A program made the position numbers and the translations under genes. A stretch of 64,000 nucleotides of DNA. Origin: Eledone cirrhosa. Lineage: Eukaryota. The stretch's first letter is position 1, and every line of letters starts with the position of its first letter. Shown one piece after another: positions 22,737 to 56,596 of the stretch. The stretch is taken from assembly GCA_964016885.1 (NCBI GenBank), contig OZ024741.1:411990001-412054000 (forward strand), given 5' to 3'. The notes under the pieces were generated by a model that made no database searches, was not told the DNA's origin, and saw only the letters and a list, made by a program, of their open reading frames with translations.

Positions 22737-23167
22737 TTAATACAGGTGTGTTTAGTAATTATTTAATATCATAGAATGGAGAAAATGTGTCAGTGTTTGT
22801 TGGTGTTTGAATCACTGCTTCACTACCTTTCTTGAGATTTAAGGAGTGCCACTCAGCTCCCCACCTCACATTCCTCTCATGTTGACATACTTTCACACAC
22901 ATACATATACATACATAGATGCATACACTCACTCACTCACACACTCATGTATATGGATGTGTGAGTGTCTAATGGTGTGTGTCCTTTACAGGTACATATG
23001 GCTGAAAGATACAAAACACACACTGACACTAACATACATATACTCCCATGCAGGTTTTGCAGGCCTACTATGAGGGCGTATTAAATTGGAGGTTTCTTGA
23101 AGTGTTCCACAGCACCTCCCACTCTTCCGGGTTCACCCACCACCCTAACACATTCTATCACCTTTAC

Positions 23168-23370
23168 CATCATCATCATCACCGTTTAACGTCCATTTTT
23201 CTACACTATGATGGGTTAGATCAGTTGTCCTGTTGTGAGCAATGCTAGGTCAGGTGACCATGTCTTGCTTATACAGAACTGATTTGGGTTTGGTTTCTAC
23301 AGCTGGATACCCTTCCTAGTGTCAACCTCATTTACAGTGTGGACTGGGTCCTTTTTGTCATGACACCTAC
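23168..23370 (-). mobile_element. RTE-related SINE/non-autonomous element remnant (3' tail plus RTE-5'UTR-derived body), host of satellite B
   Basis: The minus strand of 23168-23200 reads GAAAAATGGACGTTAAACGGTGATGATGATG, like the RTE 3' end at ~56548-56595. 23291-23370 on the minus strand matches the RTE 5' region at 53387-53450 (CCCAGTCCA..CTGTAA..AGGAAGGG.ATCCA). Confidence 0.75.
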
Positions 23371-26300
23371 ATGACCACTCTACAGTGTGGAGTGGGTCCT
23401 TTTTGTCATGATACCTACATGACCACTTTACAGTGTGGAGTGGGTCCTTTTTGTCATGACACCTACATGACCACTTTACAGTGTGGAGTGGGTCCTTTTT
23501 GTCATGATACCTACATGACCACTCTACAGTGTGGAGTGGGTCCTTTTTGTCATGATACCTACATGACCACTCTACAGTGTGGAGTCGGTCCTTTTTGTCA
23601 TGACACCTACATGACCACTTTACAGTGTGGAGTGGGTCCTTTTTGTCATGACACCTACATGACCACTCTACAGTGTGGACTGGGTGCTTTTTGTCATGAC
23701 ACCTACATGACTACTTTACAGTGTGGAGTGGGTCCTTTTTGTCATGACACCTACATGACCACTCTACAGTGTGGACTGGGTGCTTTTTGTCATGACACCT
23801 ACATGACTACTTTACAGTGTGCAGTGGGTCCTTTTTGTCATGATACCTACATGACCACTTTACAGTGTGGAGTGGGTCCTTTTTGTCATGATACCTACAT
23901 GACTACTTTACAGAGTGGACTGGGTGCTTTTTGTCATGACACCTACATGACTACTTTACAGTGTGGAGTGGGTCCTTTTTGCCATGATACCTACATGACT
24001 ACTTTACAGTGTGGACTGGGTGCTTTTTGTCATGACACCTACATGACTACTTTACAGAGTGGACTGGGTGCTTTTTGTCATGACACCTACATGACTACTT
24101 TACAGTGTGGAGTGGGTCCTTTTTGTCATGATACCTACATGACTACTTTACAGAGTGGACTGGGTGCTTTTTGTCATGACACCTACATGACTACTTTACA
24201 GTGTGGAGTGGGTCCTTTTTGTCATGACACCTACATGACTACTTTACAGAGTGGACTGGGTGCTTTTTGTCATGACACCTACATGACTACTTTACAGTGT
24301 GGACTGGGTGCTTTTTGTCATGACACCTACATGACTACTTTACAGAGTGGACTGGGTGCTTTTTGCCCTGACACCTACATGACCACTTTAAAGAGTGGAC
24401 TGGGTGCTTTTTGTCATGATACCTACATGACCACTTTACAGTGTGGACTGGGTGCTTTTTGTCATGATACCTACATGACTACTTTACAGTGTGGACTGGG
24501 TGATTTTGTCATGACACCTACATGACTACTTTACAGTGTGGAGTGGGTCCTTTTTGTCATGATACCTACATGACCACTTTACAGTGTGGAGTGGGTCCTT
24601 TTTGTCATGATACCTACATGACCACTTTACAGTGTGGAGTGGGTCCTTTTTGTCATGATACCTACATGACCACTTTACAGTGTGGAGTGGGTCCTTTTTG
24701 TCATGATACCTACATGACCACTTTACAGTGTGGACTGGGTGCTTTTTGTCATGACACCTACATGACTACTTTACAGAGTGGACTGGGTGCTTTTTGTCAT
24801 GACACCTACATGACCACTTTACAGTGTGGACTGGGTGCTTTTTGCCCTGACACCTACATGACCACTTTACAGTGTGGACTGGGTGCTCTTTGTCATGACA
24901 CCTACATGACCACTTTACAGTGTGGACTGGGTGCTTTTGTCATGACACCTACATGACCACTTTACAGTGTGGACTGGGTGCTTTTTGTCATGATACCTAC
25001 ATGACTACTTTACAGTGTGGACTGGGTGCTTTTTGTCATGACACCTACATGACCACTTTACAGTGTGGAGTGGGTCCTTTTTGTCATGATACCTACATGA
25101 CCACTTTACAGTGTGGACTGGGTGCTTTTTGTCATGACACCTACATGACTACTTTACAGAGTGGACTGGGTGCTTTTTGTCATGACACCTACATGACCAC
25201 TTTACAGTGTGGACTGGGTGTTTTTTGTTGTGACACCTACATGACTACTTTACAGTGTGGGCTGGGTACTTTTTGTTGTGACACCTACATGACCACTCTA
25301 CAGTGTGGAGTGGGTGTTTTTTGTTGTGACACCTACATGACCACTTTACAGTGTGGACTGGGTGTTTTTTGTTGTGACACCTACATGACCACTTTACAGT
25401 GTGGACTGGGTGCCTTTTGTCATGACACTTACATGACCACTTTACAGTGTGGACTGGGTGTTTTTTGTTGTGACACCTACATGACCACTTTACAGTGTGG
25501 ACTGGGTATTTTTTGTCATGACACCTACATGACCACTTTACAGTGTGGACTGGGTACTTTTTGTTGTTATACCTACATGACCACTTTACAGTGTGGACTG
25601 GGTGTTTTTTGTTGTGACAGCTACATGACCACCTTACAGTGTGGGCTGGGTACATTTTGTTGTGACAGCTACATGACCACTTTACAGTGTGGACTGGGTG
25701 CCTTTTGTCATGAAACCTACATGACCACTTTACAGTGTAGACTGGGTACTTTTTGTTGTTACACCTACATGACCAGTTTACAGTGTGGGCTGGGTACCTT
25801 TTGTTGTGACACCTACATGACCACTTTACAGTGTGGACTGGGTGTTTTTTGTTGTGACACCTACATGACCACTTTACAGTGTGGACTGGGTATTTTTTGT
25901 CATGACACCTACATGACCACTTTACAGTGTGGACTGGGTGTTTTTTGTTGTGACACCTACATGACCACTTTACAGTGTGGACTGGGTATTTTTTGTCATG
26001 ACACCTACATGACCACTTTACAGTGTGGACTGGGTGTTTTTTGTTGTGACAGCTACATTGTGACAGCTATTTTGTTGTGACACCTACATGACCACTTTAC
26101 AGTGTGGACTGGGTGCCTTTTGTCATGACACCTACATGACCACTTTACAGTGTAGACTGGGTGTTTTTTGTTCTGACACCTACATGACTACTTTACAGTG
26201 TAGACTGGGTACTTTTTGTTGTTACACCTACATGACCACTTTACAGTGTGGGATGGGTACCTTTTGTTGTGACACCTACATGACCACTTTACAGTGTGGA

Positions 26301-29300
26301 CTGGGTGTTTTTTGTTGTGACACCTACATGACCACTTTACAGTGTGGACTGTGTGCCTTTTGTCATGACACCTACATGACCACTTTACAGTGTGGACTGG
26401 GTGTTTTTTGTTGTGACACCTACATAACCACTTTACAGTGTGGACTGGGTATTTTTTGTCATGACACCTACATGACCACTTTACAGTGTGGACTGGGTAC
26501 TTTTTGTTGTTATACCTACATGACCACTTTACAGTGTGGACTGGGTGTTTTTTGTTGTGACAGCTACATGACCACTTTACAGTGTGGGCTGGGTACATTC
26601 TGTTGTGACAGCTACATGACCACTTTACAGTGTGGACTGGGTGCCTTTTGTCATGACACCTACATGACCACTTTACAGTGTAGACTGGGTACTTTTTGTT
26701 GTTACACCTACATGACCACTTTACAGTGTGGGCTGGGTACCTTTTGTTGTGACACCTACGTAACCACTTTACAGTGTGGACTGGGTGTTTTTTGTTGTGA
26801 CACCTACATGACCACTTTACAGTGTGGACTGGGTGCTTTTTGTCATTACACCTACATGACCACTTTACAGTGTGGACTGGGTGCTTTTTGTCATGATACC
26901 TACATGACTACTTTACAGTGTGGACTGGGTGCTTTTTGTCATGACACCTACATGACCACTTTACAGTGTGGAGTGGGTCCTTTTTGTCATGATATCTACA
27001 TGACCACTTTACAGTGTGGAGTGGGTCCTTTTTGTCATGATACCTACATGACCACTTTACAGTGTGGACTGGGTGCTTTTTGTCATGACACCTACATGAC
27101 TACTTTACAGAGTGGACTGTTGCTTTTTGTCATGACACCTACATGACCACTTTACAGTGTGGACTGGGTGCTTTTTGCCCTGACACCTACATGACCACTT
27201 TACAGTGTGGACTGGGTGCTCTTTGTCATGACACCTACATGACCACTTTACAGTGTGGACTGGGTGCTTTTTGTCATGACACCTACATGACCACTTTACA
27301 GTGTGGACTGGGTGCTTTTTGTCATGATACCTACATGACTACTTTACAGTGTGGACTGGGTGCTTTTTGTCATGACACCTACAAGACCACTTTACATTGT
27401 GGAGTGGGTCCTTTTTGTCATGATACCTACATGACTACTTTACAGTGTGGACTGGGTGCTTTTTGTCATGACACCTACATGACTACTTTACAGAGTGGAC
27501 TGGGTGCTTTTTGTCATGACACCTACATGACCACTTTACAGTGTGGACTGGGTGTTTTTTGTTGTGACACCTACATGACTACTTTACAGTGTGGGCTGGG
27601 TACTTTTTGTTGTGACACCTACATGACCACTTTACAGTGTGGACTGGGTGTTTTTTGTTGTGACACCTACATGACCACTTTACAGTGTGGACTGGGTGCC
27701 TTTTGTCATGACACCTACATGACCACTTTACAGTGTGGACTGGGTGTTTTTTGTTGTGACACCTACATGAGCACTTTACAGTGTGGACTGGGTGTTTTTT
27801 GTTGTGACACCTACATGACTACTTTACAGTGTGGGCTGGGTACTTTTTGTTGTGACACCTACATGACCACTTTACAGTGTGGACTGGGTGCTTTTTGTTG
27901 TGACACCTACATGACCACTTTACAGTGTGGACTGGGTATTAATTGTCATGACACCTACATGACCACTTTACAGTGTGGACTGGGTACTTTTTGTTGTTAT
28001 ACCTACATGACCACTTTACAGTGTGGACTGGGTGTTTTTTGTTGTGACAGCTACATGACCACTTTACAGTGTGGGCTGGGTACATTTTGTTGTGACAGCT
28101 ACATGACCACTTTACAGTGTGGACTTGGTGTTTTTTGTTGTGACACCTACATGACCACTTTACAGTGTGGACTGGGTATTTTTTGTCATGACACCTACAT
28201 GACCACTTTACAGTGTGGAGTGGGTGTTTTTTGTTGTGACACCTACATGACCACTTTACAGTGTGGACTGGGTGTTTTTTGTTGTGACAGCTACATGACG
28301 ACTTTACAGTGTCGGCTGGGTACATTTTGTTGTGACAGCTACATGACCACTTTACAGTGTGGACTGGGTGCCTTTTGTCATGACACCTACATGACCACTT
28401 TACAGTGTAGACTGGGTACTTTTTGTTGTTACACCTACATGACCACTTTACAGTGTGGGCTGGGTACCTTTTGTTGTTACACCTACATGACCACTTTACA
28501 GTGTGGACTGGGTGTTTTTTGTTGTGACACCTACATGACCACTTTACAGTGTGGAGTGTGTGCCTTTTGTCATGATACCTACATGACCACTTTACAGTGT
28601 GGACTGGGTGTTTTTTGTTGTGACACCTACATGACCACTTTACAGTGTGGACTGGGTATTTTTTGTCATGACACCTACATGACCACTTTACAGTGTGGAC
28701 TGGGTACTTTTTGTTGTTATACCTACATGACCACTTTACAGTGTGGACTGGGTGTTTTTTGTTGTGACAGCTACATGACCACTTTACAGTGTGGGCTGGG
28801 TACATTCTGTTGTGACAGCTACATGACCACTTTACAGTGTGGACTGGGTGCCTTTTGTCATGACACCTACATGACCACTTTACAGTGTAGACTGTGTGCT
28901 TTTTGTCATGACACCTACATGACCACTTTACAGTGTGGACTGGGTGCTTTTTGTCATGACACCTACATGACCACTTTACAGTGTGGACTGGGTGCTTTTT
29001 GTCATGATACCTACATGACTACTTTACAGTGTGGACTGGGTGCTTTTTGTCATGACACCTACATGACCACTTTACAGTGTGGAGTGGGTCCTTTTTGTCA
29101 TGATACCTACATGACTACTTTACAGTGTGGACTGGGTGCTTTTTGTCATGACACCTACATGACTACTTTACAGAGTGGACTGGGTGCTTTTTGTCATGAC
29201 ACCTACATGACCACTTTACAGTGTGGACTGGGTGTTTTTTGTTGTGACACCTACATGACTACTTTACAGTGTGGGCTGGGTACTTTTTGTTGTGATACCT

Positions 29301-32300
29301 ACATGACCACTTTACAGTGTGGACTGGGTGTTTATTGTTGTGACACCTACATAACCACTTTACAGTGTGGGCTGGGTATTTTTTGTCATGACACCTACAT
29401 GACCACTTTACAGTGTGGACTGGGTACTTTTTGTTGTTATACCTACATGACCACTTTACAGTGTGGACTGGGTGTTTTTTGTTGTGACAGCTACATGACC
29501 ACTTTACAGTGTGGGCTGGGTACATTTTGTTGTGACAGCTACATGAGCACTTTACAGTGTGGACTTGGTGTTTTTTGTTGTGACACCTACATGACCACTT
29601 TACAGTGTGGACTGGGTATTTTTTGTCATGACACCTACATGACCACTTTACAGTGTGGAGTGGGTGTTTTTTGTTGTGACACCTACATGACCACTTTACA
29701 GTGTGGACTGGGTATTTTTTGTCATGACACCTACATGACCACTTTACAGTGTGGACTGGGTGTTTTTTGTTGTGACAGCTACATGACCACTTTACAGTGT
29801 GGGCTGGGTACATTTTGTTGTGACAGCTACATGACCACTTTACAGTGTCGGCTGGGTACATTTTGTTGTGACAGCTACATGACCACTTTACAGTGTGGAC
29901 TGGGTGCCTTTTGTCATGACACCTACATGGCCAATTTACAGTGTAGACTGGGTACTTTTTGTTGTTACACCTACATGACCACTTTACAGTGTGGGCTGGG
30001 TACCTTTTGTTGTGACACCTACATGACCACTTTACAGTGTGGACTGGGTGTTTTTTGTTGTGACACCTACGTGACCACTTTACAGTGTGGACTGTGTGCC
30101 TTTTGTCATGACACCTACATGACCACTTTACAGTGTGGACTGGGTGTTTTTTGTTGTGACACCTACATGACCACTTTACAGTGTGGACTGGGTATTTTTT
30201 GTCATGACACCTACATGACCACTTTACAGTGTGGACTGGGTACTTTTTGTTGTTATACCTACATGACCACTTTACAGTGTGGACTGGGTGTTTTTTGTTG
30301 TGACAGCTACATGACCACTTTACAGTGTGGGCTGGGTACATTCTGTTGTGACAGCTACATGACCACTTTACAGTGTGGACTAGGTGCCTTTTGTCATGAC
30401 ACCTACATGACCACTTTACAGTGTAGACTGGGTGCTTTTTGTCATGACACCTACATGACCACTTTACAGTGTGGACTGGGTGCTTTTTGCCCTGACACCT
30501 ACATGACCACTTTACAGTGTGGACTGGGTGCTCTTTGTCATGACACCTACATGACCACTTTACAGTGTGGACTGGGTGCTTTTTGTCATGACACATACAT
30601 GACCACTTTACAGTGTGGACTGGGTGCTTTTTGTCATGATACCTACATGACTACTTTACAGTGTGGACTGGGTGCTTTTTGTCATGACACCTACATGACC
30701 ACTTTACAGTGTGGAGTGGGTCCTTTTTGTCATGATACCTACATGACTACTTTACAGTGTGGACTGGGTGCTTTTTGTCATGACACCTACATGACTACTT
30801 TACAGAGTGGACTGGGTGCTTTTTGTCATGACACCTACATGACCACTTTACAGTGTGGACTGGGTGTTTTTTGTTGTGACACCTACATGACTACTTTACA
30901 GTGTGGGCTGGGTACTTTTTGTTGTGACACCTACATGACCACTTTACAGTGTGGACTGGGTGTTTTTTGTTGTGACACCTACATGACCACTTTACAGTGT
31001 GGACTGGGTATTTTTTGTCATGACACCTACATGACCACTTTACAGTGTGGACTGGGTACTTTTTGTTGTTATACCTACATGACCACTTTACAGTGTGGAC
31101 TGGGTGTTTTTTGTTGTGACAGCTACATGACCACTTTACAGTGTGGGCTGGGTACATTCTGTTGTGACAGCTACATGACCACTTTACAGTGTGGACTAGG
31201 TGCCTTTTGTCATGACACCTACATTACCACTTTACAGTGTAGACTGGGTGCTTTTTGTCATGACACCTACATGACCACTTTACAGTGTGGACTGGGTGCT
31301 TTTTGCCCTGACACCTACATGACCACTTTACAGTGTGGACTGTGTGCTCTTTGTCATGACACCTACATGACCACTTTACAGTGTGGACTGGGTGCTTTTT
31401 GTCATGACACCTACATGACCACTTTACAGTGTGGACTAGGTGCTTTTTGTCATGATACCTACATGACTACTTTACAGTGTGGACTGGGTGCTTTTTGTCA
31501 TGACACCTACATGACCACTTTACAGTGTGGAGTGGGTCCTTTTTGTCATGATACCTACATGACTACTTTACAGTGTGGACTGGGTGCTTTTTGTCATGAC
31601 ACCTACATGACTACTTTACAGAGTGGACTGGGTGCTTTTTGTCATGACACCTACATGACCACTTTACAGTGTGGACTGGGTGTTTTTTGTTGTGACACCT
31701 ACATGACTACTTTACAGTGTGGGCTGGGTACTTTTTGTTGTGACACCTACATGACCACTTTACAGTGTGGACTGGGTGTTTTTTGTTGTGACACCTACAT
31801 GACCACTTTACAGTGTGGACTGGGTATTTTTTGTCATGACACCTACATGACCACTTTACAGTGTGGACTGGGTACTTTTTGTTGTTATACCTACATGACC
31901 ACTTTACAGTGTGGACTGGGTGTTTTTTGTTGTGACAGCTACATGACCACTTTACAGTGTGGGCTGGGTACATTTTGTTGTGACAGCTACATGACCACTT
32001 TACAGTGTGGACTGGGTGCCTTTTGTCATGACACCTACATGACCACTTTACAGTGTAGACTGGGTACTTTTTGTTGTTACACCTACATGACCACTTTACA
32101 GTGTGGGCTGGGTACCTTTTGTTGTGACACCTAAATGACCACTTTACAGTGTGGACTGGGTGTTTTTTGTTGTGACACCTACATGACCACTTTACAGTGT
32201 GGACTGGGTGCCTTTTGTCATGACACCTACATGACCACTTTACAGTGTGGACTTGGTTTTTTTTTGTTGTGACACCTACATGACCACTTTACAGTGTGGA

Positions 32301-34711
32301 CTGGGTGTTTTTCGTTGTGACACCTACATGACCACTTTACAGTGTGGACTGGGTATTTTTTGTCATGACACCTACATGACCACTTTACAGTGTGGACTGG
32401 GTGTTTTTTGTTGTGACAGCTACATGACCACTTTACAGTGTCGGCTGGGTACATTTTGTTGTGACAGCTACATGACCACTTTACAGTGTGGACTGGGTGC
32501 CTTTTGTCAGGACACCTACATGACCACTTTACAGTGTGGACTGGGTACTTTTTGTTGTTATACCTACTTGACCACTTTACAGTGTGGACTGGGTGCTTTT
32601 TGTCATGACACCTACATGACCACTTTACAGTGTGGACTGGGTGCTTTTTGTCATGATACCTACATGACTACTTTACAGTGTGGACTGGGTGCTTTTTGTC
32701 ATGACACCTACATGACCACTTTACAGTGTGGAGTGGGTCCTTTTTGTCATGATACCTACATGACTACTTTACAGTGTGGACTGGGTGCTTTTTGTCATGA
32801 CACCTACATGACTACTTTACAGAGTGGACTGGGTGCTTTTTGTCATGACACCTACATGACCACTTTACAGTGTGGACTGGGTGTTTTTTGTTGTGACACC
32901 TACATGACTACTTTACAGTGTGGGCTGGGTACTTTTTGTTGTGACACCTACATGACCACTTTACAGTGTGGACTGGGTGTTTTTTGTTGTGACACCTACA
33001 TGACCACTTTACAGTGTGGACTGGGTATTTTTTGTCATGACACCTACATGACCACTTTACAGTGTGGACTGGGTACTTTTTGTTGTTATACCTACATGAC
33101 CACTTTACAGTGTGGACTGGGTGTTTTTTGTTGTGACAGCTACATGACCACTTTACAGTGTGGGCTGGGTACATTTTGTTGTGACAGCTACATGACCACT
33201 TTACAGTGTGGACTGGGTGCCTTTTGTCATGACACCTACATGACCACTTTACAGTGTAGACTGGGTACTTTTTGTTGTTACACCTACATGACCACTTTAC
33301 AGTGTGGGCTGGGTACCTTTTGTTGTGACACCTAAATGACCACTTTACAGTGTGGACTGGGTGTTTTTTGTTGTGACACCTACATGACCACTTTACAGTG
33401 TGGACTGGGTGCCTTTTGTCATGACACCTACATGACCACTTTACAGTGTGGACTTGGTTTTTTTTTGTTGTGACACCTACATGACCACTTTACAGTGTGG
33501 ACTTGGTTTTTTTTCGTTGTGACACCTACATGACCACTTTACAGTGTGGACTGGGTATTTTTTGTCATGACACCTACATGACCACTTTACAGTGTGGACT
33601 GGGTATTTTTTGTCATGACACCTACATGACCACTTTACAGTGTGGACTGGGTGTTTTTTGTTGTGACAGCTACATGACCACTTTACAGTGTCGGCTGGGT
33701 ACATTTTGTTGTGACAGCTACATGACCACTTTACAGTGTGGACTGGGTGCCTTTTGTCAGGACACCTACATGACCACTTTACAGTGTAGACTGGGTACTT
33801 TTTGTTGTTACACCTACATGACCACTTTACAGTGTGGGCTGGGTACCTTTTGTTGTGACACCTACATGACCACTTTACAGTGTGGACTGGGTGTTTTTTG
33901 TTGTGACACCTACATGACCACTTTACAGTGTGGACTGGGTGTTTTTTGTTGTGACACCTACATGACCACTTTACAGTGTGGACTGGGTATTTTTTGTCAT
34001 GACACCTACATGACCACTTTACAGTGTGGACTGGGTACTTTTTGTTGTTATACCTACTTGACCACTTTACAGTGTGGACTGGGTGTTTTTTGTTGTGACA
34101 GCTACATGACCACTTTACAGTGTGGGCTGGGTACATTCTGTTGTGACAGCTACATGACCACTTTACAGTGTGGACTGGGTGCCTTTTGTCATGACACCTA
34201 CATGACCACTTTACAGTGTAGACTGGGTACTTTTTGTTGTTACACCTACATGACCACTTTACAGTGTGGGCTGGGTACCTTTTGTTGTGACACCTACATA
34301 ACCACTTTACAGTGTGGACTGGGTGTTTTTTGTTGTGACACCTACATGACCACTTTACAGTGTGGGCTGGGTACATTTTGTTGTGACAGCTACATGACCA
34401 CTTTACAGTGTGGACTGGGTGCCTTTTGTCATGACACCTACATGACCACTTTACAGTGTAGACTGGGTACTTTTTGTTGTGACACCTACACGACCACTTT
34501 ACAGTGTGGACTGGGTACTTTTTGTTGTTACACCTACATGACGACTTTACAGTGTGGGCTGGGTACATTTTGTTGTGACAGCTACATGACCACTTTACAG
34601 TGTGGACTGGATGCCTTTTGTCATGACACCTACATGACCACTTTACAGTGTAGACTGGGTACCTTTTGTTGTGACACCTACATAACCACTTTACAGTGTG
34701 GACTGGGTACT
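23331..34711. repeat. Satellite B: 48-bp tandem array, consensus ATGACCACTTTACAGTGTGGACTGGGTGCTTTTTGTCATGACACCTAC, about 237 copies
   Basis: Period of 48 read directly (16-aa periodicity in the ORF track). Occasional 1-bp indels and one partial unit near 26055. Confidence 0.98.
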
Positions 34712-34785
34712 TCACCATGTCAAATTCCCCAATACTTGGTCACACCACTGTAGGCGCCAGAGAACCATTAGGTGTGTCAGGGGCA

Positions 34786-34890
34786 TGACAACCTCTCTCG
34801 TGTTGGTGACCTACAGGATAAATGAGCGCCCAGTACACTCTGTAAAGTGGTTGGTGAAAGGAAGGGGATCTAGATATAGAAAACTTGCCA
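34786..34890 (+). mobile_element. SINE/RTE 5'-region fragment, inverted relative to satellite B
   Basis: GACAACCTCTCTCGTGTTGGTG..GCGCCCAGTACACTCTGTAAAGTGGTTGGTGAAAGGAAGGGGATC aligns by eye to 53369-53450. Confidence 0.7.
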
Positions 34891-35068
34891 ACTCACACAT
34901 AGGATCACAAGGACTTTTCAGGTGTGTCAAAACTATAACAATTTCCTGAGTGTTCGTAACACATTAAAATGACTCTGGTATAGTGTACAAGAGGGTATGT
35001 TTGGCCCCCAGCCCACTCAGAGGGCAGAAACTCTGCTTCAGTACAGACATTATATGATGATAATGATG

Positions 35069-35126: not shown

Positions 35127-35694
35127 CCCTTTTCCATTTACATTACTCTATATATACTATTGTATTGTCACAGTAAAGGCTATACCCCACATAATATCTC
35201 ACATAACATTTACATTACTCTATATACACTATTGTATTGTCACAGTAAAGGCTTTACCCCACATAATATCTCACATAACATTTACATTACTCTATATATA
35301 CTATTGTATTGTCACAGTAAAGGCTTTACCTCACATAATATCTCACATAACATTTACATTACTCTATATATACTATTGTATTTTCACAGTAAAGGTTTTA
35401 CCTCACATAATATCTCACATAACATTTACATTACTCTATATATACTATTGTATTTTCACAGTAAATGTTTTACCTCACATAATATCTCACATAACATTTA
35501 CATTACTCTATATACACTATTGTATTGTCACAGTAAAGGCTTTACCTCACTTAATATCGAATCTATGAGATTTTGATATTGTTTATTTTGAGAACAATAC
35601 CTTAACATCAGTATAAGTGGCCAGTTACGGCTGGTTTGAACAGAAAGAGGTGAGAGAATTCTGGCTGGATACGGCTGGTTTAAATCCTAAGGGG
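35127..35694. mobile_element. Second piggyBac-like MITE (MITE B) with an internal tandem expansion
   Basis: TTAA at 35123-35126 and 35695-35698. Left end CCCTTTTCCATTTA versus right-end reverse complement CCCCTTAGGATTTA (10/14). Confidence 0.72.
35137..35558. repeat. 72-bp tandem repeat, about 5.9 copies, inside MITE B
   Basis: TTTACATTACTC recurs at 35137, 35209, 35281, 35353, 35425 and 35497. Confidence 0.95.
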
Positions 35695-39000: not shown

Positions 39001-42000
39001 TTACTACTGTAGGGCCTTGGCCTCCATAGGGCAGTATCTAGCTTACTACTGTAGGGCCTTGGCCTCCATAGGGCAGTATCTAGCTTACTACTGTAGGGCC
39101 TTGGCCTCCATAGGGCAGTATCTAGCTTACTACTGTAGGGCCTTGGCTTTCATAGGGCAGTATCTAGCTTACTACTGTAGGGCCTTGGCCTCCATAGGGC
39201 AGTATCTAGCTTACTACTGTAGGGCCTTGGCTTTCATAGGGCAGCATCTAGCTTACTACTGTAGGGCCTTGGCCTCCATAGGGCAGTATCTAGCTTACTA
39301 CTGTAGGGCCTTGGCTTTCATAGGGCAGTATCTAGCTTACTACTGTAGGGCCTTGGCCTCCATAGGGCAGTATCTAGCTTACTACTGTAGAGCCTTGGCC
39401 TCCATAGGGCAGTATCTAGCTTACTACTGTAGAGCCTTGGCCTCCATAGGGCAGTATCTAGCTTACTACTGTAGGGCCTTGGCTTTCATAGGGCAGTATC
39501 TAGCTTACTACTGTAGGGCCTTGGCCTCCATAGGGCAGTATCTAGCTTACTACTGTAGAGCCTTGGCCTCCATAGGGCAGTATCTAGCTTACTACTGTAG
39601 AGCCTTGGCCTCCATAGGGCAGTATCTAGCTTACTACTTTAGGGCCTTGGCTTTCATAGGGCAGTATCTAGCTTACTACTGTAGGGCCTTGGCCTCCATA
39701 GGGCAGTATCTAGCTTACTACTGTAGAGCCTTGGCCTCCATAGGGCAGTATCTAGCTTACTACTGTAGGGCCTTGGCCTCCATAGGGCAGTATCTAGCTC
39801 ACTACTGTAGGGCCTTGGCCTCCATAGGGCAGTATCTAGCTTACTACTGTAGGGCCTTGGCCTCCATAGGGCAGTATCTAGCTTACTACTGTAGAGCCTT
39901 GGCCTCCATAGGGCAGTATCTAGCTTACTACTGTAGGGCCTTGGCCTCCATAGGGCAGTATCTAGCTTACTACTGTAGGGCCTTGGCCTCCATAGGGCAG
40001 TATCTAGCTTACTACTGTAGAGCCTTGGCCTCCATAGGGCAGTATCTAGCTTACTACTGTAGGGCCTTGGCCTCCATAGGGCAGTATCTAGCTTACTACT
40101 GTAGAGCCTTGGCCTCCATAGGGCAGTATCTAGCTTACTACTGTAGGGCCTTGGCCTCCATAGGGCAGTATCTAGCTTACTACTGTAGGGCCTTGGCTTT
40201 CATAGGGCAGTATCTAGCTTACTACTGTAGGGCCTTGGCCTCCATAGGGCAGTATCTAGCTTACTACTGTAGGGCCTTGGCCTCCATAGGGCAGTATCTA
40301 GCTTACTACTGTAGGGCCTTGGCCTCCATAGGGCAGTATCTAGCTTACTACTGTAGGGCCTTGGCTTTCATAGGGCAGTATCTAGCTTACTACTGTAGGG
40401 CCTTGGCCTCCATAGGGCAGTATCTAGCTTACTACTGTAGAGCCTTGGCCTCCATAGGGCAGTATCTAGCTTACTACTGTAGAGCCTTGGCCTCCATAGG
40501 GCAGTATCTAGCTTACTACTGTAGGGCCTTGGCTTTCATAGGGCAGTATCTAGCTTACTACTGTAGGGCCTTGGCCTCCATAGGGCAGTATCTAGCTTAC
40601 TACTGTAGGGCCTTGGCCTCCATAGGGCAGTATCTAGCTTACTACTGTAGAGCCTTGGCTTTCATAGGGCAGTATCTAGCTTACTACTGTAGGGCCTTGG
40701 CCTCCATAGGGCAGTATCTAGCTTACTACTGTAGGGCCTTGGCCTCCATAGGGCAGTATCTAGCTTACTACTGTAGAGCCTTGGCCTCCATAGGGCAGTA
40801 TCTAGCTTACTACTGTAGGGCCTTGGCTTTCATAGGGCAGCATCTAGCTTACTACTGTAGGGCCTTGGCCTCCATAGGGCAGTATCTAGCTTACTACTGT
40901 AGAGCCTTGGCCTCCATAGGGCAGTATCTAGCTTACTACTGTAGGGCCTTGGCCTCCATAGGGCAGTATCTAGCTTACTACTGTAGGGCCTTGGCCTCCA
41001 TAGGGCAGTATCTAGCTTACTACTGTAGGGCCTTGGCCTCCATAGGGCAGTATCTAGCTTACTATTGTAGAGCCTTGGCCTCCATAGGGCAGTATCTAGC
41101 TTACTACTGTAGGGCCTTGGCCTCCATAGGGCAGTATCTAGCTTACTACTGTAGAGCCTTGGCCTCCATAGGGCAGTATCTAGCTTACTACTGTAGGGCC
41201 TTGGCCTCCATAGGGCAGTATCTAGCTTACTACTGTAGAGCCTTGGCCTCCATAGGGCAGTATCTAGCTTACTACTGTAGGGCCTTGGCCTCCATAGGGC
41301 AGTATCTAGCTTACTACTGTAGAGCCTTGGCCTCCATAGGGCAGTATCTAGCTTACTACTGTAGGGCCTTGGCCTCCATAGGGCAGTATCTAGCTTACTA
41401 CTGTAGGGCCTTGGCTTTCATAGGGCAGTATCTAGCTTACTACTGTAGAGCCTTGGCCTCCATAGGGCAGTATCTAGCTTACTACTGTAGAGCCTTGGCT
41501 TTCATAGGGCAGTATCTAGCTTACTACTGTAGAGCCTTGGCCTCCATAGGGCAGTATCTAGCTTACTACTGTAGAGCCTTGGCTTTCATAGGGCAGTATC
41601 TAGCTTACTACTGTAGAGCCTTGGCCTCCATAGGGCAGTATCTAGCTTACTACTGTAGAGCCTTGGCTTTCATAGGGCAGTATCTAGCTTACTACTGTAG
41701 GGCCTTGGCTTTCATAGGGCAGTATCTAGCTTACTACTGTAGGGCCTTGGCCTCCATAGGGCAGTATCTAGCTTACTACTGTAGAGCCTTGGCCTCCATA
41801 GGGCAGTATCTAGCTTACTACTGTAGAGCCTTGGCTTTCATAGGGCAGTATCTAGCTTACTACTGTAGAGCCTTGGCCTCCATAGGGCAGTATCTAGCTT
41901 ACTACTGTAGAGCCTTGGCTTTCATAGGGCAGTATCTAGCTTACTACTGTAGAGCCTTGGCCTCCATAGGGCAGTATCTAGCTTACTACTGTAGAGCCTT

Positions 42001-43351
42001 GGCTTTCATAGGGCAGTATCTAGCTTACTACTGTAGAGCCTTGGCCTCCATAGGGCAGTATCTAGCTTACTACTGTAGAGCCTTGGCTTTCATAGGGCAG
42101 TATCTAGCTTACTACTGTAGGGCCTTGGCTTTCATAGGGCAGTATCTAGCTTACTACTGTAGGGCCTTGGCCTCCATAGGGCAGTATCTAGCTTACTACT
42201 GTAGAGCCTTGGCCTCCATAGGGCAGTATCTAGCTTACTACTGTAGAGCCTTGGCCTCCATAGGGCAGTATCTAGCTTACTACTGTAGGGCCTTGGCCTC
42301 CATAGGGCAGTATCTAGCTTACTACTGTAGGGCCTTGGCTTTCATAGGGCAGTATCTAGCTTACTACTGTAGGGCCTTGGCCTCCATAGGGCAGTATCTA
42401 GCTTACTACTGTAGAGCCTTGGCCTCCATAGGGCAGTATCTAGCTTACTACTGTAGAGCCTTGGCCTCCATAGGGCAGTATCTAGCTTACTACTGTATGG
42501 CCTTGGCCTCCATAGGGCAGTATCTAGCTTACTACTGTAGGGCCTTGGCCTCCATAGGGCAGTATCTAGCTTACTACTGTAGGGCCTTGGCCTCCATAGG
42601 GCAGTATCTAGCTTACTACTGTAGGGCCTTGGCCTCCATAGGGCAGTATCTAGCTTACTACTGTAGAGCCTTGGCTTTCATAGGGCAGTATCTATCTTAC
42701 TACTGTAGGGCCTTGGCCTCCATAGGGCAGTATCTAGCTTACTACTGTAGGGCCTTGGCTTTCATAGGGCAGTATCTAGCTTACTACTGTAGAGCCTTGG
42801 CCTCCATAGGGCAGTATCTAGCTTACTACTGTAGGGCCTTGGCCTCCATAGGGCAGTATCTAGCTTACTACTGTAGGGCCTTGGCCTCCATAGGGCAGTA
42901 TCTAGCTTACTACTGTAGGGCCTTGGCCTCCATAGGGCAGTATCTAGCTTACTACTGTAGGGCCTTGGCCTCCATAGGGCAGTATCTAGCTTACTACTGT
43001 AGGGCCTTGGCCTCCATAGGGCAGTATCTAGCTTACTACTGTAGAGCCTTGGCTTTCATAGGGCAGTATCTAGCTTACTACTGTAGGGCCTTGGCCTCCA
43101 TAGGGCAGTATCTAGCTTACTACTGTAGGGCCTTGGCTTTCATAGGGCACATCCAGCTACCTGTAGGGCCTTGGCCTCCATAGGGCAGCATCTAGCTTAC
43201 TACTGTAGGGCCTTGGCTTTCATAGGGCACATCCAGCTACCTGTAGGGCCTTGGCTTTCATAGGGCAGTATCTAGCTTACTACTGTAGGGCCTTGGCCTC
43301 CATAGGGCAGTATCTAGCTTACTACTGTAGGGCCTTGGCTTTCATAGGGCA
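36099..43351. repeat. Satellite C: 42-bp tandem array, TAGCTTACTACTGTAG(A/G)GCCTTGGC(CTC/TTT)CATAGGGCAGTATC, about 172 copies, very homogeneous
   Basis: Period of 42 read directly. Only two common variable sites. Two shortened variant units near 43148 and 43228. Confidence 0.98.
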
Positions 43352-45291: not shown

Positions 45292-45667
45292 CATCATCAT
45301 CATTGTCATCATTTTACGTCCGCTTTTCACTGCTTGCAAGGGTGGGACAGGAACAGATTCTGGCTCCATCTCTACAGCTGGATGCCCTTCCGAACACCAA
45401 CCTCATCTACAGTGTGGGCTGGGTGCTTTTTTTCCGTGGCGCCTACACGCCCACTTTACAGTGTGGGCTGGGTGGCACCTCCACGACCACTTTGCAGTGG
45501 AATATAGAGACCCCAGTCCCTATCATCTCATTTCTACAGCTGAGTAAACTGGAGCAATGTGAAATAAAGTGTCTTGCTCAAGGAAACAACACATCACCCA
45601 GTCTGAGAATTGAACTCAACCTTTCGATTGCAAGGCCAATGCTCTAACCACTAAGCCATGTGCCTCC
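45292..45667 (-). mobile_element. Apparently complete tRNA-derived SINE with bipartite RTE-related body and tail
   Basis: Head with A box TGGCTTAGTGG (45658-45648) and B box GAGTTCAATTC (45617-45607), then TCCTTGAGCAAGACACTT. An RTE-5'-like segment (45500-45370) follows. The 3' end CCTGTCCCACCCTTGCAAGCAGTGAAAAGCGGACGTAAAATGATGA closely matches the RTE end at 56525-56570, then a (GAT)n tail. It could be two abutting elements rather than one. Confidence 0.75.
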
Positions 45668-46611: not shown

Positions 46612-49600
46612 CTACAGGCGTATATTCAGAGCAGTCCCGTTCACTCGGACCATTCTCGCTACATTCACCCACCTTTCAACAAACTTGCTAGAGGGCAGCA
46701 CTTGCCTCTCCACCCTGATTTTCCTCTTCAAGTGAAACTTGCCACCCGGCAGATGAAAACCGCCTGTCCTTCCTCCTCGAAGGAAGACGGCGAGACCATC
46801 TGCACAATGGACTCAGTCGACAACCGGATCAGTCCTACACGCGACAGCAACTGTTCGACATAGCTCCACAAGTTAGCAATGCTCGGACACTGAACGAGTG
46901 CGTGCACGACGGTTTTGTAGCTCTGCGCGCATCTCGGACAGGCTCGGCTGACGGCACTTCCGTGCCTATAGAGCTTATCTCAAACTGGCAGCGCTCCCTG
47001 GTAGCACTGCCAGGCCAGGGATTTTTGGAAGTTATCCATAGGCCTCGGGCTGAAAGTTCTCCGGAAGAAAGCAAACAGCTGATCTTCAACGCCCAGGATC
47101 TCTCCGAGAATGTTGTCGCTCTTCCCCTCCACTAGTCCTCTATAGAACGCCGAGGTGGATGTTCCACCGATACTGGTGCCCAGCTGGGAGAGGGCAGTGA
47201 GCGCCTGGAGACATTCCAGTTTCCAAGCGCTATCCCTCGGTCTTTTTCTGACCCAGGTCTGCAGCTCTGTCAAGGAGACGAGCTGTGGGAAAATGTGCCT
47301 GGCGAACGGCGACCACACCTGTTCACCATCAAGGAAGCACCAGCGATGTTGCAGCCTCAGCGCATGTTTGCGCATCATCAGCCATGGCATGCCCAGTCCT
47401 CCACGCAATGGGTGTTGACAGCAGATGGATCGTCTGACCATGGGAGCGCATCCCTTCCACAAAAAGCGGAAGAGGAGGCGCTCCATTTTGGTGAGAGTTG
47501 GGCTGGAGCAAGGGACGACGGTGAGGCGGTAGCAGATGACGGATGTGATGTACGCATTCCCCATCTCCGCCCGGCCTTTCAGGGACAACTTCCTCTCGGC
47601 CCATTTCTGGATGAGGGAGGCCACCCTGCTTGTCACCTCGTTCCAGTTTTTCTCCATCTGGAAGTCCGGTCCGAACCAGACCCCGAGCAATTTAACCGGT
47701 CCGTCCGTCCGAAGCCCCACGATGCTGTTGGACAGCATGGACTTGCCTCTCCAGGTGCCGAGCCCACCGACTTTTCCTGGTTTATCTTTGCTCCTGTCAC
47801 CTCTTCGTATTCCTTGAGAGCGGTGCCAAGCATCTGGACGTGTCTGGTGCTCGACACCACCACGGTGACGTCGTCAGCGTAAGCCGACTCAGATTTCCAA
47901 CATCCTAGTTCGCGTGGGACGCCCCTCATCGCCCCAGTTTGTGCAGTAACGGCTCGAGAGCCAATACGTACAAGAGGGACGAGAGGGGACAAACCCGGCG
48001 GACTGAGCGCATGATGCTGAACGGCTGCGACAGGTGACCATTCACCCTCACAACTGAGCAGATGTCGCTGTACATTGCTGCGATCCAGCCCCTGAAAACG
48101 GGCCCCGAAACCGGCTGCCTCGAGGACCGCCGCCAGGTCCCGATGGTCGACCCTATCGAATGCTTTGGATTGATCCAAGTTGATCAGGACTCCACCCTTG
48201 CCAGGTTCCTTAACCACTCTCTCTATGATGTATCGCATGAGGTGGAGGTTGTCGTGTATGGATCTGTCCGGGATGGCGCATGTCTGCGCCTCTCCGACCA
48301 GACCCTTGACGACAAGCGCCAACCTCGTTGCCAACACCTTGGCCAAAATCTTGAACTCTGCGTTTAGCAGGGTTATGGGCCTGAAGTTATCAATAACATC
48401 CTCCTTGTTCGGGTCTTTTCTCAGTAGTGCCACTGCTCCCCGGCTCACAAAACTGGGAATGCTCCCGTTCTGCTGCCAGTTGCAGTAGACGTCTGCCAAG
48501 AGGTCACCGAACAAGTCTGGCATAAATGCATAAAGCTTGTAGGGCAGACCATCCAAACCTGGCGATTTACCCCTCGTGCAGTTAGCTATCGCTTCCCGTA
48601 TTTCACCAGCTGTAATTGGCTTTTCGCAACACTGTGCTGCGGTCGTCGAGAGCCGAGGCAGTCCGTCGAGGTATGCACTGAAGTCCATGCCCCGATCCGG
48701 GCCGCCGCTGCTCCCGAACAGTTCAGCAAAGTGCTGCTGAAAAGCTTCCCACATATGCTCTGGTTCAAGCAACACGCACCTGTTTTGGTCAGATAAAGAC
48801 CGAATTGTGGCTTTGTTGCCACGTCGCGCTTCTGCCACCCAGGCCCATTGGACGGCTTTTGTCCCCTCGTGTTTCAGAGCACGCGCTCTAGCTCTGACAA
48901 CGCAGCCTTCGTGTTTTGCGTTGAAGAATTGGTCGAGTGCCAATCTCGCCGCAAGCACGTCGGTTGCGATGCCTGTCCTAAACGCCTCTTCTAGCTTTCT
49001 GACTAGCTCTCCCTCTACTCTATTTTCCTCTATCACTACTCCTTTACTAAACCTAATCAACTCTACTTTAATTGCCCTTTTCAGGGCGAACCATCACCTG
49101 TTGTTGACGATCGCTCCCGTCAACGCCCGCTTAACTAATACGCTAATCCGGTCTCTGTAGGCTTTGCGCGCCGGGAAAGACGCGTTCAGCTTCCAGTAAC
49201 CAGGCCCTTGTCTATGAAGTCTGTCTATGTCGATCTCACAGATCACAAATTTGTGGTCTGTGTAGTCGACTATTTTAAATTGTGGACAACTTATATTAGC
49301 CTTATCTAGTTCTCTGCAGAATACCCTATCGAGATACGATCTGGATGACCCGATGCGGTTTGTCCATGTCCACATTGGCACATTCGGGTGATCCAGTCGA
49401 TACCTGTCAGACAGTTCAAAACGTCTGAGCAGGTTGGTGAGGCTCTTGCACCCTCCTCCCCTATCCACTAGCCCCACACGATCCCAGCGTGCATCCAAGA
49501 TACCGTTCCAGTCGCCCACTAACACTAAAGAGCGGGACGTTCCAAGAAAGGTCTCTAGACGTCTGAAGAAATCTGGCCGTCCTGCCCCTGTTGGGGCGTA

Positions 49601-53254: not shown

Positions 53255-56200
53255 AACAGACAAGGGGTGGACGGAGGCTCTGTAAGCCGTAGTGTAGGCA
53301 ACCCGTCTACGAGAGCTACCACTCCGAATAAATTGGTGCGGGGTAGAGAAGTCCCCTAATACCAGTAAGACAACTTCCCTAGTGTTGGTGGCACGAATAA
53401 AAGCACCCAGTCCATGCTGTAAGGTGGTGCTGGTGTTAGGAAGGGCATCCAACCAGAATGAAATTTGCAACAACTGCGTAAACAGCAATAACACTAACCA
53501 TGTTAGGGCTGCGCATGGTAGTGGGGTGGCTGGTGCGGCCATGTGCGAGAATCCCCCAACCGTCATCAAACAATCGCACAACAGGAAAAAGAACGAGATG
53601 TCGCATCTCGGAGTTTCCACACTTAATGTTGGCACTCTAACAGATAGATCTTGTGAGATAGCGGAGATGCTGGAGAGAAGGCATGTGGATGTGTGCTGCA
53701 TGCAAGAGGTGAGATGGAGAGGTGCCTCTGCAAGACTAATCGCAGGCAAACATCGGAGTTATAAGCTTTTCTGGGTGGGTAATGATGATTGGTTAGGTGG
53801 GGTGGGTATATTACTGGCTGAGAGGTGGATCAGTAAGACAATAGAGGTAGTTAGAGTTAGTGTTAGAATAATTAAGCTTAGGTTAGTTGTAGACAAGAGA
53901 TTACTGACAATCATCTCTACTTATGCTCTCCAGGTAGGCCAAGGAAAAGAAGAGAAAGACTGCTTTTACGAGCAACTTTTACAAACAGCCTCAATGACAG
54001 AGATCAGAGACATCGTTATGCTAGCAGGGGACTTCAATGGACATGTTGGACAGCTCCAGGATGGATACACTGGGGTACATGGTGGGCACGGTTACGGCTC
54101 AAGAAATGAAGAAGGAGTGAGACTTCTTGAATTTTGTGATGCAAATGCACTAACCATTTACAACACTAACTTCCAGAAGCCTACCAACCACCTAATAACC
54201 TACAAATCAGGCGAGCACATAAGCCAGATTGACTTCTTGCTAGTTAGACAGCGAGACAGACAGATGGTGTCAAATATTAAGGCATAGCCTGGGGAAGAAT
54301 GTACCCCACATCATAGGTTAGTCGTTAGTGACATCTCAGTAAGCATGAGAAAGAATGAGACATACAGGAAGGTCTGGGAGCTAAAAGACCTTTTATTAAA
54401 ATATAAATTTAGCAAAGCCCTTCAAGATGTGTATGACGAAAAAGAAGACGATTTAGAGTTGTATGACATAGATAATAACTGGAATTTCTTACGTGACAAC
54501 TTACTGGAGGCTACTGAAGAAACTTATGGTTGGGGCAGAGCTTCAACCAGATAGAGAGTGACCTGGTGGTGGAACAGCATGGTAGATAGGGCCATTAGAG
54601 ACAAAAGACTGGCATGGAAGGCTTGGAAAAAGGGTGGGAGTAGGGAAGGATACACAGCCGCTAGAAGAGAAGCTAGACGTCAGGTGTACTTAGCACGCAG
54701 GGAGGCTGAGAGTAGGAGGTTTGCCAATGTTCTGCGATGGGAAAATCAGAAACATGCGGTGTTCCGCATTGCAAGGCAGTGTGTCAATGCAAATCAGGAT
54801 GTTGTTGGAGATAAGTATGTCCGGAATGATCGGAAAAAGGAGGCCTGGAAATGTCACTATGAGAGACTGATGAATGGGACAGAGAGAAATTATCCCCAAT
54901 AGACCCAACAGAGGGACCAGCTATTGAGATTGATGAATATAGGGTACAAGAGGCAATTAAAGAAATGAAGAATGATAAGGTTGCTGGTCCGTCGGGGATA
55001 GTTGCTGTGATGCTGAAGGCATCAGGTGAAGTAGGCATTAAACTGGTTGCATGCATCATCAATCAAGTTATATATGGTGGTGTCATACCCAAAGACTGGT
55101 GCAGCAGTATTCTCATAAATTGCTACAAAGGTAAAGGGGATGCTCTGGAGAGGAGCACTTATATGGGCATAAAGCTGATGGATCAGGTTATGAAACTGAT
55201 TAGAGAAAGGGTCAAATTAGATGAGATGCAGTTTGGTTTTGTGCCTGGGAAAAGTACAACAGTGAGGCAACTACAAGAGAAGTTCTTAGAGAAGAATAAG
55301 CCATTATACTTAGCTTTTGTTGACCTAGAGAAGGCCTTTGAGGGTACCCCGATCTGTCATCTGGTGGTCCCTAAAGAACTAGGTGTAGAGGAATGGCTTG
55401 TGAGGGCAGTGCAAGCTATGTACAGGGGTGCTGTCAGTAAAGTGAGAGAGGTATGAAGTTTAGTGGGGAATTTCAGATACAAGTAGGTGTACATCAAGGT
55501 TCGGTTCTCAGCCCGCTCTTGTTCATTATAGTCTTCCAAGCCATAACAGAGGAGTTTAAGACTGGCTGTCCATGGGAACTTCTCTATGCTGACGATCTGG
55601 TTCTTATAGCAGAATCAGTAGAGGAGCTAGAGAATAAATTCTGGCTATGGAAACAGCAGTTGGAATTAAGAGGACTGAGAGTGAACCTAACTAAGGCAAA
55701 AGCGTTGATAAGTAGAAGAGAGGACAATACTCCGATTCCATCAAGGAAATGGCCATGTTCGAAATGCAGAAAAGGAACTGGCATAAATTCCATAAAATGT
55801 ACGCAAAGCAGATCTTGGGTACACAAGAGATGTAGTGGGATAGCAGGCAAACTAACAGGTAGGGAAAACTACGTATGCAGTAGATGTACAGGGAAAGTTG
55901 GCAGTAGTAATCACAGTGATAGACACATTTTTCCAATGCAGGTGGGTTCTATAGAAGTGCTTGATAGCTTCCGGTACCTAGGTGATCAGATTAGCATGGG
56001 AGAGGGTTGTTCCGAGGCCATAGTATCTAGAATAAGGACGGGTTGGAAGAAGTTTAGGGAGCTGCTTCCTTTGTTGACAAAGAAGGGTTTCTCCCTGCAT
56101 ACGAAAGGACGGTTATATGATGCCTGTGTGAGATACGCAATGCTGCATGGTAGTGAGACATGGGCAGCAACTGCAGAAGATATGCCACGGCTGGAGAGAC

Positions 56201-56596
56201 ATGAAGCAAGTATGCTCCGTTGGATGTGCAATGTCAATGTGCGTGGACGACCAAGCATAGACGAGTTGAGAAAGAAACTGGGTATAAGAGGGATAAGTTG
56301 TGGTGTGCAGGAGAGAAGGCTGAGATGGTATGTACATGTGATGCGCATGGAGGATGACCGGTGGGTAAAGAAGTGCCAAGAAATCCCAGTAGAAGGAAGA
56401 CGCAGTAGAGGTAGACCACGAAAACCATGGGTGGAGGTGGTGAGAACAGACCTCAGATCGCTGAAACCCACCGAGGAGATGACGAAGGACCGTGACAAAT
56501 GGAGAGATGCTGTGCTGAATAGGACCTGTCCAACCCTTGCAAGAAGGGAAAAGCGACGTAAAATTATGATGTTGATGATGATGATGATGATGATAA
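53255..56596 (+). mobile_element. RTE-clade LINE, near full length, defective
   Basis: 5' region with GGCAACCCGTCTA and AGGAAGGGCATCC motifs, a single EN-RT ORF and a (GAT)n tail at ~56567-56596. The 5' boundary is approximate. Confidence 0.92.

What the first reader, a model, noticed from the sequence alone, without database searches (positions are those of the whole stretch)
45370..45500. Seed state of satellite B: a SINE copy carrying only 2-3 units of the same repeat
Seen: TCTACAGCTGGATGCCCTTCC..CAACCTCATCTACAGTGTGGGCTGGGTGC closely matches the entry into satellite B (23296-23350), including the ACCTCAT variant. It is followed by a second unit 49 bp later and a partial third (CGACCACTTTGCAGTGG). 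Inference: this SINE subfamily carries a built-in minisatellite, so retroposition could scatter seeds that sometimes expand about 100-fold.
Basis: partly seen in the sequence, partly recalled or inferred. Interest (0 to 1): 0.7.

Follow-up and report, generated by a model that had tools for sequence, protein, structure and literature searches.

The report
Retrotransposon-tail repeat seeds scattered satellites
A 48-49-letter repeat carried in the tail of a common jumping gene, and borrowed by a smaller parasite element, forms long arrays inside separate copies of both elements, likely growing in place after insertion and far more often on one small chromosome and likely near chromosome ends; the neighbouring satellite likely grew from the larger element rather than from the small copy flagged here, and this route to satellites is already known.

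Summary
45292-45667 is a minus-strand tRNA-headed SINE with one full 49-bp unit, a second unit shortened by a 14-nt gap and a partial third. The unit comes from the 3' UTR of an RTE-type LINE. The SINE took that UTR and later swapped its last 48 nt for a second LINE's tail. Satellite B (236 units) has the LINE's tail, LINE-type units and no SINE head, so it is a cousin of this SINE, not its product. Segmental duplication is refuted: one SINE junction has 15,827 exact matches. Most SINEs are unexpanded (46 of 50 have one unit, 4 have two), yet true SINEs reach 54 units, and LINE-type units fill a ~698-kb array. Expansion depends on place: 87 of 5,002 internal SINE-type units lie on the four largest chromosomes (54% of the genome); 7 of 23 SINEs on C27 have three or more units versus 0 of 50 on C1. 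Growth in place is inferred. The scan found this unit on other DNA before; parallels are published (Ogre 3' UTR satellites, squamate SINE satellites). New member of a known kind.

The parts
45590..45667 (-). SINE head, tRNA-derived (A and B boxes)
   Evidence: Rfam tRNA match 45658-45604, 27.8 bits, E 0.0012, just under the gathering score 29; ARAGORN finds no intact tRNA; 5' end lines up in 30 of 30 copies
45501..45589 (-). SINE central domain (CORE-like, label recalled, not tested)
   Evidence: conserved in 30 of 30 copies; absent from LINE copies, which diverge at the first partial unit
45396..45500 (-). SINE copy of the LINE 3' UTR repeat: one full 49-bp unit, one unit with a 14-nt gap, one partial unit
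   Evidence: cores at 45406, 45455, 45491; alignment to donor LINE L218
45345..45395 (-). LINE-derived entry motif shared with satellite B's element
   Evidence: part of the 84/103 alignment
45292..45344 (-). SINE tail taken from a second RTE-type family, ending in (ATG)n
   Evidence: last 48 nt of SINE L006 are the same as those of LINE copy L349; 10-17 differences to the repeat-bearing tails
23167..23330 (-). 3' end of the repeat-bearing RTE-type LINE copy that holds satellite B (tail, (ATG)n, entry motif)
   Evidence: 86-91% matches at 39 other places among 40 scored; several of them run on into ORF C-terminus
23331..34712 (-). Satellite B: 236.5 units of 48 bp, expanded LINE 3' UTR repeat
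   Evidence: TRF; 75 distinct 48-mers among 229; identical 17-unit block at 31471 and 32672
34759..34891 (+). older inverted remnant of a related LINE tail with a single unit-like stretch
   Evidence: 72-83% matches to held loci
53592..56594 (+). broken copy of the second RTE-type family (tail donor), short 3' UTR without the repeat
   Evidence: 57-61% amino-acid identity to the L363 ORF in three frames; 3' end; 1,591 matches of its end motif at up to 1 mismatch

Best explanation
The 48-49-bp unit lies in the 3' UTR of an RTE-type LINE family and in a tRNA-headed SINE that shares that UTR, and it likely expands in place after each copy has inserted, by misaligned repair or unequal exchange between the unit and its partial copy. 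Retrotransposition scatters seeds of 1-2 units plus a partial unit (shown by copy structure). The SINE likely arose by joining a tRNA/core head to the LINE UTR at the first partial unit (full-tail intermediates exist) and then exchanging its tail for that of a second LINE (shown by identity). Satellite B likely grew from a 5'-truncated LINE copy. Whether a seed grows, or keeps its growth, depends on place: C27 for SINE-type units; chromosome ends and some small chromosomes for LINE-type units. No function is shown.
For: LINE link: near full-length copy L363 has one 1,016-aa frame with endonuclease (E 4e-6) and RT (E 3.5e-34) domains followed by a 2-unit UTR and (ATG)n; arrays of 114 and 38 cores run on into ORF end. 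Series LINE, full-tail SINE, short-tail SINE. Growth in place: arrays occur in four element types and keep their own unit type (between-array distance 0.086 LINE-LINE, 0.076 SINE-SINE, 0.22 LINE-SINE); 19 of 20 long SINE arrays have unrelated flanks, one pair shares a flank; block duplications inside satellite B; a ~698-kb array cannot be a transcript. Place effect: 87 of 5,002 internal units on C1-C4 (lengths); 7 of 23 versus 0 of 50, Fisher p 1.5e-4.
Against: Within-array divergence is barely below between-array divergence (0.076 vs 0.086; 0.063 vs 0.076), so copying between loci or spread of pre-expanded masters is not excluded; the arrays were picked by likeness to a query, which inflates this likeness. 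The SINE sense strand has no run of four T, so Pol III could read through an array. TSDs were inconclusive. The place effect is not general to small chromosomes: 0 internal units and no SINE above 2 cores in 200 kb from C19-C26 and C28. The C1 and C27 samples were chosen in different ways (exact junction versus even spacing). Neither end of the giant array keeps LINE flanks. No recombination map, reads or second individual were examined.
Confidence: 0.8

Rival explanations
1. One reading: this SINE subfamily is the seed of satellite B.
For: 82% shared entry; same orientation, 11 kb apart; SINEs do expand elsewhere.
Against: No SINE head or core at satellite B; different tail (17 differences in 48 nt); units cluster with LINE arrays; 0 of 13 long arrays found with a satellite-B query have a SINE head, 10 of 13 show a LINE-type tail (read by eye).
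Confidence: 0.03
2. Arrays lengthen during reverse transcription or are spread from pre-expanded master copies (SVA-like), so long copies are inserted long.
For: No Pol III terminator in the unit; units are alike between loci; UTR unit number varies among ORF-bearing copies (2, 2, 2, 4, 6 cores in 5 of 6 examined).
Against: Insertion should not favour C27 about 2,000-fold per base over C1-C4 (109 versus 0.054 internal units per Mb) when the SINE junction is only about 16-fold denser there than on the sampled start of C1 (42 versus 2.6 per Mb); arrays of 11 kb and 698 kb; internal block duplications.
Confidence: 0.1
3. Expansion happens everywhere at a similar rate, but arrays are removed or not assembled on the large chromosomes (survival or assembly bias), or arrays spread between nearby copies by gene conversion on C27.
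For: The Ogre paper raises differential persistence (PMC7004042, discussion); 6 of 22 long SINE-type loci lie on unplaced contigs; units alike between loci.
Against: Long LINE-type arrays are assembled on C1, C2 and C6, near their ends; C1 SINEs are intact 1-unit copies, not deletion scars. This rival changes the cause of the place effect, not the origin of the unit.
Confidence: 0.2
4. Local segmental duplication links the two window loci.
For: Proximity only.
Against: Flanks unrelated; thousands of dispersed copies.
Confidence: 0.01

Closest known systems
Ogre/Tat LTR-retrotransposon 3' UTR repeats that expand into satellites (Lathyrus FabTR, pea PisTR-A; PMC7004042, abstract and discussion read)
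   Same: short tandem repeat built into a retrotransposon 3' UTR, dispersed with the element, occasionally expanded, with expansion concentrated in particular chromosome regions
   Different: host is a non-LTR RTE-type LINE plus a SINE, in an animal; bias is to C27 and chromosome ends rather than primary constrictions (centromere positions unknown here)
SINE-derived satellites sSat1-3 of squamates (PMC10702118, abstract, sections 18 and 19 read)
   Same: tandem arrays of part of a SINE with element sequence at the ends, up to about 1,000 units, longer loci subtelomeric
   Different: here the unit is LINE-derived and already present as unit plus partial unit in every copy; both SINE ends are usually kept; LINE and SINE expand in parallel; one array is about 14,500 units
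RTE-dependent SINEs and SINE tail exchange (PMC5786205, passages read)
   Same: tRNA head, core-like body, RTE-derived 3' part, and exchange of the tail
   Different: the middle RTE part here is 3' UTR of another RTE family, not a 5' UTR fragment, and it holds a minisatellite seed
Octopus OR2 CORE-SINE (named in PMC4758252, passages) and RTE-2_OV (PMC9115989, passages)
   Same: general build (tRNA-CORE SINE; single-ORF RTE of about 1,100 aa)
   Different: no sequence comparison was possible; RTE-2_OV is described with a microsatellite starting at the ORF end, unlike the 350-bp repeat-bearing UTR here; that the genome is an octopod is my recall from its repeats, no call names it
SVA VNTR of primates (recalled)
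   Same: non-autonomous retroelement with an internal minisatellite of variable length
   Different: most copies here stay at one unit and long arrays depend on place

Membership tests
tRNA-derived SINE | tRNA-like head with A and B boxes | tested here: met
   Rfam tRNA E 0.0012, 27.8 bits, below gathering 29
tRNA-derived SINE | short, non-coding, dispersed in many copies with a simple-repeat tail | tested here: met
   376 bp; 15,827 exact junction matches; (ATG)n tail
tRNA-derived SINE | 3' end shared with a partner LINE | tested here: met
tRNA-derived SINE | target-site duplications | tested here: inconclusive
   6 of 35 short and 3 of 7 long copies gave a non-simple match of 7 nt or more, nearly all TA-rich; control 126 of 1,722 mismatched pairs; none for the window copy
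CORE-SINE / Octopus OR2 | homology to the CORE domain or OR2 sequence | not testable with these tools
   no SINE library on hand; label recalled
RTE-clade LINE | single ORF with AP endonuclease and RT, short 3' UTR ending in a short tandem repeat (definition recalled) | tested here: met
   one frame of 200 aa or more in L363: Exo_endo_phos + RVT_1 (+ PHD); (ATG)n end
RTE-clade LINE | RT groups with named RTE references in a tree | not tested
   326 homologues found, none of the 120 listed names a clade; no tree built
Retrotransposon-derived satellite (Ogre-like / sSat-like route) | same unit as short array in dispersed elements and as long arrays still joined to element sequence | tested here: met
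Retrotransposon-derived satellite (Ogre-like / sSat-like route) | long arrays concentrated in particular chromosome regions | tested here: met
   chromatin type of those regions not testable
Centromeric satellite (for the C25 array) | CENP-A binding or position at the primary constriction | not testable with these tools
   needs ChIP or FISH

The most novel reading that the evidence does not exclude
Tens of thousands of near-identical SINE and LINE seeds act as a built-in reporter showing that one small chromosome (C27) runs a tandem-amplification regime hundreds of times stronger per copy than the large chromosomes, and one LINE-tail seed has become a ~700-kb array that now serves as the centromere or pericentromere of C25.
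Probability: 0.15. Interest if true: 0.7.

Novelty: new member of a known kind. Interest (0 to 1): 0.36.

Why it matters
It is a well-resolved animal case of satellites born from a retrotransposon 3' UTR, with every stage in one genome (1 unit, 2 units, tens, hundreds, about 14,500). Because the same seed sits at many thousands of places, it allows a direct test of which chromosome properties (recombination, chromatin, nearness to ends) let tandem arrays grow or persist, a question the Ogre paper leaves open. It also shows a SINE carrying a LINE's minisatellite through a tail swap. It gives no evidence of function.

Tried and rejected
SINE as seed of satellite B: rejected. Segmental duplication: rejected. 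Short SINE tail as a plain deletion of the LINE tail: my first reading, replaced by a tail swap. The 6,037 matches as internal units: most of the 30 loci read were SINE junction variants, so a stricter pattern was used. 'Small chromosomes in general': not supported by 200 kb from C19-C26 and C28. TSD search: inconclusive; a candidate 9-bp duplication at 23162-23170 and 34710-34718 (8 of 9 alike, read by eye) overlaps both tail and unit and is weak. A regular higher-order repeat in satellite B: only weak peaks at lags 17 and 25 (11% identical units). Folding of unit dimers gave only weak hairpins, no shuffle control. Protein homologue search named no clade. A planned comparison of UTR length in ORF-bearing LINE copies on small versus large chromosomes was not run, so the place effect for LINE copies rests on 10 versus 30 copies (Mann-Whitney p 0.023) and on array positions.

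Full report
Setting. The window is G000:C2:411,990,001-412,054,000 of a 3.0-Gb animal genome; C2 is 416.3 Mb, so the window is 4.3 Mb from the chromosome end. That the animal is an octopod is my recall from its repeat families; no call names it. Most of the first 43 kb is three tandem arrays; satellite B is 23331-34712, 48 bp x 236.5.

Observation. Confirmed. The stretch from 45371 aligns with the entry of satellite B at 84 of 103 bases (E 5e-25). Cores lie at 45406, 45455 and 45491; unit 2 has a 14-nt gap that 2 of 30 aligned copies share. The host is a 376-bp minus-strand SINE with a tRNA-like head (Rfam E 0.0012, just under the gathering score; no intact tRNA) and an (ATG)n tail. Its head and core have no match at satellite B.

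Where the unit comes from. Searching with the satellite B flank gave dispersed copies at 86-91% (40 of 4,405 candidates scored). In the 29 non-self loci fetched, 1-22 cores were counted per locus side, and several copies run on into a protein C-terminus on the opposite strand. A sister-subfamily copy, L363, has a single 1,016-aa frame with endonuclease, RT and PHD matches, then about 350 bp of UTR with two diverged units, the shared entry motif and (ATG)n. This fits an RTE-type LINE by build (definition recalled; no tree, named no clade). An exact 27-mer of the satellite-B-type tail has 1,251 matches, and an exact 35-mer of its unit 18,098.

How the SINE got it. Aligned copies form a series: LINE copies with the SINE's unit type (L195, L218, L221, L259); SINEs with the full LINE tail (L193, L205, L219, L067); short-tail SINEs such as the window copy. 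LINE and SINE part at the first partial unit. The 2-unit SINE matches the 2-unit LINE L218 unit for unit, so two units is likely inherited, not a fresh expansion. The short tail is not a plain deletion: the last 48 nt of SINE L006 are the same as those of L349, a copy of a second LINE family with no repeat, and differ at 10-17 places from the seven repeat-bearing tails compared (alignment). A broken copy of that second family lies in the window at 53592-56594.

Which element seeded satellite B. The LINE. Satellite B units differ by 0.08-0.14 from 14 LINE-type arrays and by 0.20-0.27 from 16 SINE-type arrays. Of 13 separate long arrays found with a satellite B query (15-185 cores; 40 of 3,378 candidates scored), 10 show a LINE-type tail, 4 the LINE UTR start or ORF end on the far side, and 0 a SINE head (read by eye). 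A further array on C25 runs from 18,426.8 to 19,124.3 kb, about 698 kb or 14,500 units: 23 of 23 interior 10-kb stretches were wall-to-wall (199-207 cores each), covering about a third of the span. Neither of its ends keeps LINE flanks, so its origin rests on unit sequence.

Do SINEs expand? Yes, rarely. Of 51 junction-selected positions on C1 (the first listed of 15,827), one was dropped as an identical-context duplicate; of the 50 left, 46 have one unit plus the partial and 4 have two. A search with an expanded SINE array (40 of 2,608 candidates scored) gave 22 distinct loci among the 30 fetched: 21 SINEs (20 by script, 1 by eye) and 1 LINE, with 11-54 units; 11 on C27, 3 on C25, 6 unplaced, 1 on C19, 1 on C1 (the query). 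Both tail types occur. In 20 of these arrays 446 of 492 internal units are of first-unit type and none carries the mark of the 2-unit form, so the usual seed is likely the 1-unit SINE with its short terminal repeat, not the form flagged here. Flanks were unrelated except for one pair.

Place effect. An exact pattern for an internal SINE-type unit has 5,002 matches, 87 of them on C1-C4, which hold 1,617 of 2,996 Mb. In 33 evenly spaced 10-kb stretches of C27 (22.4 Mb) there were 36 internal and 14 junction matches, against 1 internal per 100 junction matches in the first 38 Mb of C1. Seven of 23 complete C27 SINEs have three or more units versus 0 of 50 on C1 (p 1.5e-4; samples chosen differently). 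Against a general small-chromosome rule: 0 internal and 2 junction matches in 20 stretches from C19-C26 and C28; 0 and 0 in 11 stretches of C3. Long LINE-type arrays on large chromosomes that I saw lie near ends (C1 2.30 Mb, at least 15 kb; C6 98.9 of 102.6 Mb; satellite B), but C28 at 93 of 136 Mb does not, and this was not counted genome-wide.

Mechanism. Shown: element structures, copy numbers, unit distributions, place bias, tail identity. Inferred: insertion by target-primed reverse transcription (established for LINEs and SINEs; TSDs inconclusive, many insertions in (TA)n); first duplication by misalignment of the partial unit with the first unit; growth by unequal exchange or repair, supported by an identical 17-unit block at 31471 and 32672 and 75 distinct 48-mers among 229. 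Not excluded: copying between loci (between-array distance barely above within-array), Pol III read-through (no T4 run), and differential survival.

Known work. PMC7004042 (abstract, discussion): satellites from Ogre 3' UTR repeats, with regional bias. PMC10702118 (abstract, sections 18, 19): SINE-derived satellites, subtelomeric. PMC5786205 (passages): RTE parts in SINEs and tail exchange. PMC9659126 (passages, table): review listing L1, CR1 and HeT-A 3' ends as satellite sources. PMC9115989 and PMC4758252 (passages), PMC13282606 (part 1 of 3): octopus repeats, nothing on this unit in what I read; supplements were not opened and may list these families. Eight searches listed no paper on this repeat; the library lacks most subscription journals and Repbase. 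The scan's own notes report the same 48-bp unit on other pieces of this genome and supplied the two closest papers; none were found near this window or by sequence.

Verdict. A real feature and a new member of a known kind. Interest 0.36.

Noticed in passing
G000:C25:18,426,800-19,124,300 (L134-L139, L227-L232, L236, L267-L276, L301-L302): About 698 kb of the same 48-bp LINE-type unit in one orientation; candidate centromeric or pericentromeric array; about a third sampled.
   Followed up: partly
window 53592-56594: Broken copy of a second RTE-type LINE whose tail the short SINE carries; no repeat in its UTR.
   Followed up: partly
window 34759-34891; L131; L123: Arrays often abut an inverted related tail or inverted units of an older type (fold-back arrangement); could reflect inversion at insertion or insertion into relatives.
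   Followed up: no
L250 (C1749) and L261 (C936): Same flank (94.7% over 434 bp) with 54 versus 30 units: possible alleles or duplicates of one insertion with different lengths.
   Followed up: partly
L359, L357: In a sister LINE subfamily a larger block (entry motif plus two units, about 138 bp in L359) is itself duplicated or triplicated in the UTR.
   Followed up: no
window 176-22554, 36099-43351, 35135-35558: Three more tandem arrays (49 bp x 458, 42 bp x 173, 72 bp x 6) within 4.3 Mb of the C2 end; origin not examined.
   Followed up: no
window 61781-64000 and 47717-48601: Distant reverse-transcriptase matches (25% identity to the L363 protein): other retroelement remains.
   Followed up: no
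L363 ORF residues 756-799: PHD-finger match inside the RT-bearing ORF, also in many of the homologues listed.
   Followed up: no
L233 about 7950-8750 (C25): An array of roughly 70-80 bp units inside the core region of another SINE, seen only in a translation print-out.
   Followed up: no
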